The position numbers and the translations under genes are program-made. Positions 35,332 through 36,791 of a DNA stretch of 64,000 nt are shown here, in pieces. Within the stretch, counting starts at the first letter, position 1, and every line of letters starts with the position of its first letter. The notes beneath the pieces were generated by a model, which saw nothing but the letters and a program-made list of their open reading frames with translations, did no database searches and was not told the origin of the DNA. Location of the stretch: the NCBI RefSeq assembly GCF_009914755.1, contig NC_060929.1; one strand, given 5' to 3'. The stretch is from the human T2T-CHM13v2.0 reference genome, Homo sapiens.

Positions 35332-35501
35332 GTAAATATGATCAATGCATAAACAGAATTGCTAGTTTGTTTATTAGATCACAATAGCATTTTTCATCTT
35401 ACAATTCAGATACTGGAGATCAGATAGGTCCCAGATAAAACTAGGCAAGAACCACATTGTTTCATTCTTTGCTAGCATTAACCGAATTATTTTTTTTTCA
35501 G

Positions 35502-35594
35502 ATTGGTTTCATTCTTTTGATGAAACTGAGCAACTCTGTCCGACAAGATTTAGTTTGTACTTGGAAACTGCAGAGTAGGCTCAAAGTATTTTAG
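35502..35594 (+). CDS. candidate alternative terminal exon of TTC23L (retrocopy-derived)
   Basis: ttaac branch-like motif and T-run+cag acceptor at 35501; phase-0 frame IGFILLMKLSNSVRQDLVCTWKLQSRLKVF*; AATAAA at 36055. Confidence 0.4.
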   Translation: MGFILLMKLSNSVRQDLVCTWKLQSRLKVF

Positions 35595-35667
35595 AGGGAC
35601 TCGATATTGATGGCAAAAGAAAATTGGCAGCCATATGTTTGCTTCTAACGGTTCCCTCTCTGACAAA

Positions 35668-35962
35668 CTTTTTTTTTTTTTTTTGAGACAGGGTCTCTGT
35701 CACCCAGGCTGTAGTGCAGTGGGGCGATCTCGGCTCACTGCAACCTCCGCCTCTTGGGTTCAAGAGATTTGCCTGCCTCAGCCTCCCAAGTAGCTGGGAT
35801 TACAGGCATGCGCCACCATGCCCAGCTAATTTTTGTATTTTTAGTAGAGATGGGGTTTCTCCATGTTGACCAGTCTGGTCTTGAACTCCTGACCTCAGGT
35901 GATCCACCTGCCTTGGCCTCCCACAGTGCTGGGATTACAGGAGTGAGCCACTGTGCCCCACC
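35668..35962 (-). mobile_element. Alu (S-like)
   Basis: Full antisense Alu. Confidence 0.92.
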
Positions 35963-36791
35963 AGCATTGCCTTTCTTGTTTGAAATTTTACAGCTATACT
36001 TTGTTGTGTAATGTTATGGTTCCCTTTCTGTAAAATGTTATTTTTGGTGATCTAAATAAAGCCTGTCTTGTTTGGAGAAAAAAATAAGAATAAAACTAGG
36101 AATAATACACAGGGCTTAGGTGGCTTGGAATATTAGTAAAAAAATATTTTTCTTGTATCTTGATACATGAGATCCTTCAAATCCAGCACACATGATCTCT
36201 GGCATTGTAAATTTAATATTTTAAGTCAAAATTGGCTTCCATCTTCGGATCTAGCTACTAGTTCTTTTCTTTTGCAGTAGTGGTTTTCTCTTGATCTGAT
36301 AGGTTTTTATTAGCCACAATCTTGTTTTCACATTTAAAAAGTTATAGAGAATAATTGTTATTGCTGACCTTTTTACTTAGAAGTCCCATGAGTCTAAGCT
36401 ATCATTCAAAACCTTTTGACTTGAACTTTATATATTCACTGCAGCATGAACACAGTGAAGACCTTTGTCTGTCATAAGATCCCACATGACTTTGATCTGA
36501 CCAAGCCAACTTTATACTTCCTCAGAAGAGTGAGAAATATGGATAGATTTGACATGGTCTTATTGGCCATGTAAAAACCAGTTTAAGAGTAGAGTTACAG
36601 GCACATAATAAGTAAAAATTTATTTCCAGGAATGAAGAACAGTTTTTTTTATATCATATCTAAACATTTTTTATAAATGATGACGTTTTCTTTATTTCAA
36701 TTTTAATTGCCATTTGTAAAGACAAAAACCTTATAATGATTTGCAACCTTTTTTCTGTGGCCATGATATTTTCTGTTGGTTTAGAAGACTG

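What the first reader, a model, noticed from the sequence alone, without database searches (positions are those of the whole stretch)
35435..36100. Sense-oriented retroposed mRNA tail just after the last shared exon offers a third C-terminus and intronic poly(A) site
Seen: a block of about 640 bp bounded by the direct repeat ataaaactagg, ending in AATAAA + about 16 nt + A-rich tail, begins about 115 bp after the 35331 donor. It contains a good acceptor (ttaac...ttttttttttcag, 35501) whose phase-0 frame reads IGFILLMKLSNSVRQDLVCTWKLQSRLKVF*. Inference: an L1-mobilised 3' UTR fragment of another gene acts as a gene trap. That could have relaxed selection on the downstream ancestral exons and would give an NMD-immune isoform. 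I cannot name the parent gene.
Basis: partly seen in the sequence, partly recalled or inferred. Interest (0 to 1): 0.7.

Follow-up and report, generated by a model that had tools for sequence, protein, structure and literature searches.

The report
Old MSL3 mRNA tail inside TTC23L
A short copy of the tail end of the MSL3 messenger RNA sits inside an intron of the human TTC23L gene; it is an ordinary old insertion that is likely spliced out, with no sign found that it cuts the gene short.

Summary
The block is real and its parent is now named. Between exact 11-nt target-site duplications lie the last ~356 nt of the MSL3 3' UTR (chrX; 87% and 98% identity), later split by an antisense Alu. It is a 5'-truncated, sense, UTR-only processed pseudogene with three longer sister copies (chr2, chr7, chr8).

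The gene-trap reading is unsupported. The acceptor AG is private to this copy, so it arose after insertion. Acceptors this good occur 25 times in 51.7 kb of these introns. RefSeq lists no exon in the block but lists a terminal exon 350 nt beyond it. None of 42 TTC23L proteins carries the predicted tail. The ancestral downstream exon is as conserved as the upstream one, and chimpanzee likely keeps a GT donor, so the GC donor is far younger than the insertion.

Two oddities remain: three private changes build a branch point plus acceptor (1-1.5% in simulation), and the poly(A)-signal segment is little changed (scan p 0.026, about 0.1 after four looks). RNA reads and primate genomes could not be examined.

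The parts
35204..35331 (+). TTC23L shared coding exon; ends in phase 0 (...QNGEKQ) at a canonical CAG|GTAAAT donor
   Evidence: hub gene table
35435..35445 (+). 5' target-site duplication ATAAAACTAGG (AT/AAAA, one base off the TT/AAAA L1 endonuclease motif; motif recalled)
35446..35668 (+). 5' part of the MSL3 3' UTR copy; 87% to chrX, 88% to the chr2 and chr7 copies; 5'-truncated inside the UTR, no MSL3 coding sequence
35478..35501 (+). candidate 3' splice site (TTAAC branch motif, T tract, CAG), made by changes private to this copy at 35482, 35498 and 35501; use not shown
35502..35594 (+). 30-codon phase-0 frame plus stop; hypothetical C-terminus, not found in any protein retrieved
35669..35962 (-). 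antisense Alu inserted into the copy, with loss of about 14-23 nt of target and no duplication; 11 of 221 non-CpG sites differ from a local consensus, 5 of 20 CpGs kept
35963..36074 (+). last 112 nt of the MSL3 mRNA (110 of 112 identical to chrX), with UGUA motifs and AATAAA at 36055-36060
36075..36089 (+). decayed poly(A) tail, starting at the same base as the tails of the three sister copies; a second AATAAA begins at 36089
36090..36100 (+). 3' target-site duplication
36445..36629 (+). RefSeq alternative exon outside the block; its end is not followed by GT, so it is inferred terminal; would read HEHSEDLCLS* if joined to the 35331 donor; AGTAAA upstream and a U-rich tract downstream of its end
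   Evidence: hub gene table
41432..41581 (+). ancestral TTC23L exon (EAYRLL...QLLRK), open frame, GC donor in this genome, long A run just upstream of its pyrimidine tract; not in the RefSeq list given
43488..43570 (+). next ancestral exon (CLMIQ...), used by some RefSeq transcripts
   Evidence: hub gene table

Best explanation
The block is a 5'-truncated copy of the last ~356 bases of the MSL3 mRNA, bounded by target-site duplications and split by an antisense Alu, likely inserted by L1 machinery in a primate ancestor and likely spliced out of TTC23L as a passenger. Shown: parent identity, duplications, tail at the shared end point, Alu with a small target deletion, acceptor created by later point changes. 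Inferred: L1 target-primed reverse transcription stopped after about 356 nt (established retrocopy mechanism); age of roughly 30 million years or more; the copied AATAAA works poorly because a retrocopy lacks the parent's downstream U/GU element and lies 0.7 kb behind a canonical donor; skipping of the ancestral 41432 exon is better explained by its own GC donor and the A run beside its acceptor.
For: Parent: chrX hit at 87% and 98%, in the last exon of an intron-containing gene whose peptide is identical to PDB 2Y0N MSL3 over 29 residues. The whole block is accounted for by MSL3 UTR + Alu + tail. Passenger: no RefSeq exon in the block among 22 transcripts, while exons 36445-36629, 43488, 51806 and 54426 lie beyond it and need read-through (hub table). 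0 of 42 proteins carry the tail; no hit. 25 equally good acceptor-like sites in 51,685 intronic nt, 10 of them with AATAAA 50-800 nt downstream; 28 AATAAA in this intron. The 60 nt after the end point hold 28 A, 13 T and 3 UG/GU steps against 17 A, 16 T and 7 in MSL3. Only 1.5% of predicted intronic sites are expressed (PMC10651852, passages). Age: Alu 5.0% non-CpG; chr5 branch 0.08-0.10 against 0.03 for the chr2 copy; MSL3P1 is present in rhesus (PMC8108447 supplement 7). No relaxation: human identity upstream exon vs 41432 exon is dog 34/42 vs 41/50, donkey 33/42 vs 41/50, marmoset 35/42 vs 40/50, chimpanzee 40/42 vs 50/50.
Against: Three private changes together make a branch motif, longer T tract and AG; random substitution did this in 1.0-1.5% of 20,000 trials (criterion set after seeing the site). 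The 3' segment has 0-1 changes in 112 nt against 13-19 in 213 nt (Fisher 0.003-0.005). Annotation and 90%-clustered protein sets miss rare or testis-only isoforms. No RNA reads and no primate genomes were available. The literature supplements searched did not hold suitable atlases, so their blanks say little.
Confidence: 0.75

Rival explanations
1. Minor composite intronic polyadenylation: the 35331 donor is sometimes ignored and the transcript is cleaved at the copied AATAAA (36055) or at the tail-derived one (36089). The protein would end ...[10 protein letters not shown], not IGFILL..., and the acceptor would play no part.
For: Canonical AATAAA with upstream UGUA motifs kept almost unchanged. 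61.6% of assembled intronic poly(A) isoforms are composite (PMC5928244, passages). The read-through frame stops after 6 codons. The second AATAAA has a GU-richer stretch 25-40 nt downstream.
Against: Canonical donor; A-rich sequence downstream of the first site; no such RefSeq exon; the unbiased scan p for the clean run is 0.026 for one copy, about 0.1 over four; the chr2 copy, which is transcribed, has 4-5 changes in the same segment, so use does not demand such conservation.
Confidence: 0.14
2. Late exonization: point changes made a working acceptor, and 35502-36075 is a rare alternative last exon giving a 30-residue tail and an NMD-immune mRNA.
For: The acceptor scores like real TTC23L acceptors (10 of 12 pyrimidines, branch motif). 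Its three improving changes are private and unlikely by chance (1-1.5%). Splice sites arising after insertion are described for such events (PMC2584115 section 9).
Against: 0 of 42 proteins; none; not in RefSeq; 25 such sites in these introns; RefSeq already has a neighbouring last exon at 36445.
Confidence: 0.08
3. Full gene-trap history: the insertion truncated most transcripts, relaxed selection on the ancestral 3' exons and so allowed the GC donor.
For: Position just after the last shared exon; the human ancestral exon has a GC donor and is missing from the RefSeq list.
Against: No acceptor at insertion. The ancestral exon is open and as conserved as the upstream exon. Chimpanzee model implies GT. 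11 non-primate models also skip that exon. Marmoset model keeps both ancestral exons, though whether marmoset has the block is untested.
Confidence: 0.02
4. On origin only (compatible with the best reading): the template was the testis-expressed retrogene MSL3P1 on chr2 rather than MSL3, or the 3' 112 nt were later refreshed by conversion from MSL3 cDNA.
For: chr5 and chr2 share states at 35984 and 35569. MSL3P1 has its highest expression value in testis (PMC8108447 supplement 9). The 3' part is 98% and the 5' part 87% identical to MSL3.
Against: Trees are unresolved: chr5 groups with chr2 (support 38) or chr7 (support 55) depending on CpG removal. chr5 keeps the state that chrX has changed at 35978.
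Confidence: 0.15

Closest known systems
MSL3 processed pseudogenes: MSL3P1/MSL3B on chr2 (named in PMC7835786 and PMC11601488, passages) and the chr7 and chr8 copies found here
   Same: Same parent, same tail start point, similar or greater divergence.
   Different: Those join at least four MSL3 exons, and the chr2 copy keeps a 414-codon open frame. This one holds only the last 356 nt of UTR, lies in a host intron, is split by an Alu and is not in the RefSeq table given. That my chr2 hit is MSL3P1 is inferred from chromosome, strand and open frame.
Type I retrocopy exon acquisition, new 3' exon (Baertsch et al. 2008, PMC2584115: 18 cases, e.g. the RPL32/RPS29 and C10ORF26/BCAP29 rows)
   Same: Sense retrocopy in a host intron offering an acceptor, a short new C-terminus and a poly(A) signal; splice sites arising after insertion.
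   Different: Those cases have spliced mRNA or EST support; none was found for this block. The paper's main text does not mention MSL3 or TTC23L (supplements not searched).
Intronic polyadenylation, composite and skipped terminal exons (PMC5928244, PMC10651852)
   Same: AATAAA in an intron 0.7 kb behind a donor.
   Different: No downstream element from the parent, genomic A run at the cut site, no evidence of use.
Alu insertion with target-site deletion (class recalled, Callinan et al. 2005, not read)
   Same: Alu without duplication, short loss of target at a T-rich site.
   Different: Pre-insertion state is inferred from paralogues, not from orthologues.

Membership tests
L1-made processed pseudogene (retrocopy) | Homology to a parent mRNA ending at the parent's 3' end | tested here: met
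   Ends at the base where all three sister copies' tails start; parent is MSL3
L1-made processed pseudogene (retrocopy) | Poly(A) tail remnant | tested here: met
   36075-36089
L1-made processed pseudogene (retrocopy) | Target-site duplication at the homology edges | tested here: met
   Exact 11-mer, 2 occurrences in 64 kb
L1-made processed pseudogene (retrocopy) | L1 endonuclease motif at the target | tested here: inconclusive
   AT/AAAA, one base off the recalled TT/AAAA consensus
L1-made processed pseudogene (retrocopy) | Loss of parental introns | not testable with these tools
   The fragment lies wholly within the last MSL3 exon
L1-made processed pseudogene (retrocopy) | Empty site in outgroup genomes | not testable with these tools
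   No other mammalian genome is held
L1 3' transduction | L1 sequence or non-mRNA flank between the duplications | tested here: not met
   Block fully accounted for by MSL3 UTR, Alu and tail
Type I retrocopy exon acquisition (new 3' exon) | Sense orientation with acceptor, frame and poly(A) signal | tested here: met
Type I retrocopy exon acquisition (new 3' exon) | Spliced transcript or protein that includes the retrocopy | tested here: not met
   No RefSeq exon (hub table); 0 of 42 proteins; none. Raw reads were not examined, so rare use is not excluded
Type I retrocopy exon acquisition (new 3' exon) | Splice site and frame kept across primates | not testable with these tools
   No primate genomes held
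Used intronic poly(A) site | AAUAAA with upstream UGUA | tested here: met
Used intronic poly(A) site | Downstream U/GU-rich element | tested here: inconclusive
   A-rich after the first site, moderately GU-rich after the second hexamer (simple counts, no trained model)
Used intronic poly(A) site | 3'-end reads with untemplated A | not testable with these tools
   No read data; the supplements searched had no TTC23L row, and those of PMC5928244 list only immune-cell comparisons

The most novel reading that the evidence does not exclude
The fragment was exapted in two steps: the MSL3 poly(A) signal has been held nearly unchanged for tens of millions of years while three later mutations built a branch point and acceptor, giving primates a testis-type alternative last exon of TTC23L made entirely of another gene's 3' UTR plus an Alu.
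Probability: 0.07. Interest if true: 0.55.

Novelty: new member of a known kind. Interest (0 to 1): 0.2.

Why it matters
As it stands this is a small addition: an MSL3 retrocopy fragment not listed in the RefSeq table given, and a practical warning. Its last 112 nt are 98% identical to the 3' end of MSL3 mRNA and are followed by a genomic A run. If the novel case held, it would be a datable example of a terminal exon assembled stepwise from a UTR-only retrocopy, a class that protein-based retrogene screens miss. The more promising lead is nearby: a probably human-lineage GT-to-GC donor on a conserved TTC23L exon.

Tried and rejected
First acceptor threshold (11 of 12 pyrimidines) excluded the site itself and gave 6 background sites and 0.05-0.07% in simulation; repeated at 10 of 12, which gave 25 sites and 1.0-1.5%. 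With the branch motif dropped, the reconstructed ancestral fragment already has a qualifying site at about 35476 and 58-70% of simulations pass, so the result depends on the criterion. Trees could not resolve the direct source. TTC23L was not found in the supplements of PMC5928244 (4 files, immune comparisons only), PMC7290577 (1 file, cut), PMC10651852 (8 files, 1 unreadable) or PMC8108447 (11 files); these blanks are weak. No paper in the library holds both TTC23L and MSL3; 31 mention TTC23L, and none of the 30 listed titles concerns this intron (listing only). Rejected: chance repeat (exact at both homology edges); L1 3' transduction (no L1 or flank in the block); segmental duplication from chrX (no other non-repeat match of the window to 9.9 kb of the MSL3 locus).

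Full report
Observation. The 11-mer ATAAAACTAGG occurs exactly twice in the window, at 35435 and 36090. AATAAA is at 36055, the A-rich tail at 36075-36089, the acceptor AG at 35500-35501, and the phase-0 frame closes at 35592. The upstream exon does end in phase 0. The middle 294 nt are an antisense Alu.

Parent. Searching the window's own genome with the two non-Alu parts gave the same four other loci, on chrX, chr2, chr7 and chr8 (five candidates scored per search, so a lower bound). The chrX locus is the last exon of an intron-containing gene; its peptide matches PDB 2Y0N, male-specific lethal 3 homolog, over 29 of 29 residues. The chr2, chr7 and chr8 copies each join four chrX exons without introns, and the chr2 copy keeps a 414-codon frame, consistent with MSL3P1 (PMC7835786 and PMC11601488, passages). 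The window matches only the last ~356 nt of the MSL3 UTR and nothing else non-repetitive in 9.9 kb of that locus. All four copies begin their tails at the same base, which marks the parent's cleavage site by inference. The duplications sit exactly at the homology edges. The block is thus a 5'-truncated processed pseudogene. Whether MSL3 or MSL3P1 was the template is unresolved (supports 38 and 55).

History. The Alu replaced about 14-23 nt at a T-rich site and has no duplication. It differs from a consensus of 21 local Alus at 11 of 221 non-CpG sites and keeps 5 of 20 CpGs, an AluS-like age (label and dates recalled). The chr5 branch is 0.08-0.10 against 0.03 for the chr2 copy, and MSL3P1 has a rhesus orthologue (PMC8108447 supplement 7). 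I infer an insertion of about 30 million years or more; MSL3P1 may be constrained, which weakens that comparison. Presence across primates could not be tested.

The acceptor. The parent and all three sisters read T-tract-GCAA; only this copy has T-tract-CAG. Changes at 35482, 35498 and 35501 are private and make the branch motif, extend the tract and create the AG. So nothing could trap splicing at this site when the copy arrived. On simple features it is as good as real TTC23L acceptors. It is also common: 25 sites meet the same rule in 51,685 intronic nt, 8 in this intron, and 10 of the 25 have AATAAA 50-800 nt downstream. One of the 25 starts a RefSeq alternative exon (22229) and one is used in an orangutan model (50525), so such sites are sometimes picked up; 35502 was not. 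Against my reading, random substitution of the reconstructed ancestral fragment produced such a site in only 1.0-1.5% of 20,000 trials. The rule was set after seeing the site, and without the branch motif 58-70% of trials pass.

The poly(A) signal. A retrocopy carries only what lies upstream of the cut. U/GU elements downstream are part of a working site, and only 1.5% of predicted intronic sites are expressed (PMC10651852, passages). The 60 nt after the end point are A-rich here (28 A, 3 UG/GU steps) against 17 A and 7 steps in MSL3. The intron has 28 AATAAA hexamers. Against my reading, the 112 nt around the signal carry 0-1 changes against 13-19 in the 213 nt before the Alu (Fisher 0.003-0.005). 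An unbiased scan gives p 0.026 for the 90-nt clean run, about 0.1 over four copies, and the total of 13 private changes in 325 nt is close to chr7's 12. I count this as suggestive only.

Use. The hub's RefSeq table (22 transcripts) has no exon in the block. It has an exon at 36445-36629 whose end is not a donor, with AGTAAA before and a U tract after. A third C-terminus with an intronic poly(A) site is therefore likely annotated already, but 350 nt beyond the block, and it requires read-through of the copied signal. Of 42 TTC23L protein cluster representatives none has the predicted tail, and a search with the frame itself found 2 candidates and no hit at E<=10. Clustering at 90% can hide a short alternative tail, and most models are predictions.

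Downstream exons. The ancestral continuation is exon 41432-41581 then 43488-43570; 24 of 42 representatives include the first, and 12 of 42 skip straight to the second, 11 of them non-primates. In this genome the 41432 exon is open, with a GC donor and a long A run beside its acceptor. Its identity to dog, donkey, marmoset and mouse equals that of the exon upstream of the block (41/50 vs 34/42; 41/50 vs 33/42; 40/50 vs 35/42; 30/48 vs 30/41). The chimpanzee model reads through the donor with Val where human has Ala, implying GT. The GC donor is thus likely human-lineage or polymorphic and tens of millions of years younger than the block. Relaxed selection caused by a trap is not supported. The selected transcript does stop 97 nt before its last junction (hub table), an NMD-type arrangement by the 50-55 nt rule (established knowledge), but other annotated ends already avoid this.

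Comparison and novelty. It works like any 5'-truncated processed pseudogene and meets the tested features of that class. It resembles Type I exon acquisition (PMC2584115, section 9 and passages) but fails its key feature, a supporting transcript, on the data seen. No paper in the library names TTC23L with MSL3; subscription papers, bioRxiv supplements and poly(A) atlases were not searchable and may bear on this. Verdict: real, ordinary, new member of a known kind; interest 0.2.

Noticed in passing
window 18078-19459: TTC23L intron with an ATATCCTT donor, a TCCTTGAC branch box and an AC end: a U12-type AT-AC minor intron by sequence (consensus recalled).
   Followed up: partly
window 41392-41583: Conserved ancestral exon 41432-41581 missing from the RefSeq list given, with a GC donor (chimpanzee model implies GT) and a long A run before its pyrimidine tract: a candidate human-lineage exon weakening.
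   Followed up: partly
window 51806-51911: The selected transcript reads this exon as DK* through a weak AAG acceptor; orthologues coming from exon 43488 read it in another frame (...SSSRWRREAIPGRRNS...) found in carnivore, donkey and rabbit models. The sequence looks L2-derived (recalled, untested).
   Followed up: partly
window 36440-36530: A gibbon model uses the region of the 36445 exon as an internal coding exon; a GTGAGA donor-like site lies near 36530.
   Followed up: no
window 50525: Acceptor-like site used by an orangutan model as a last exon (MSLEQLHTEKLF*), intact in this genome.
   Followed up: no
L002/L015 (G000:C7:140485114-140486.2k) and L005/L016 (G000:C8:100464628-100465.7k): Two further intronless MSL3 copies; the chr8 copy is much older (about 9% private changes).
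   Followed up: partly
L004:1672-1747 and window 35650/36018: The MSL3 3' UTR has an internal tandem-like duplication (about 77% identity) around its poly(A) signal; the Alu landed in the first unit.
   Followed up: no
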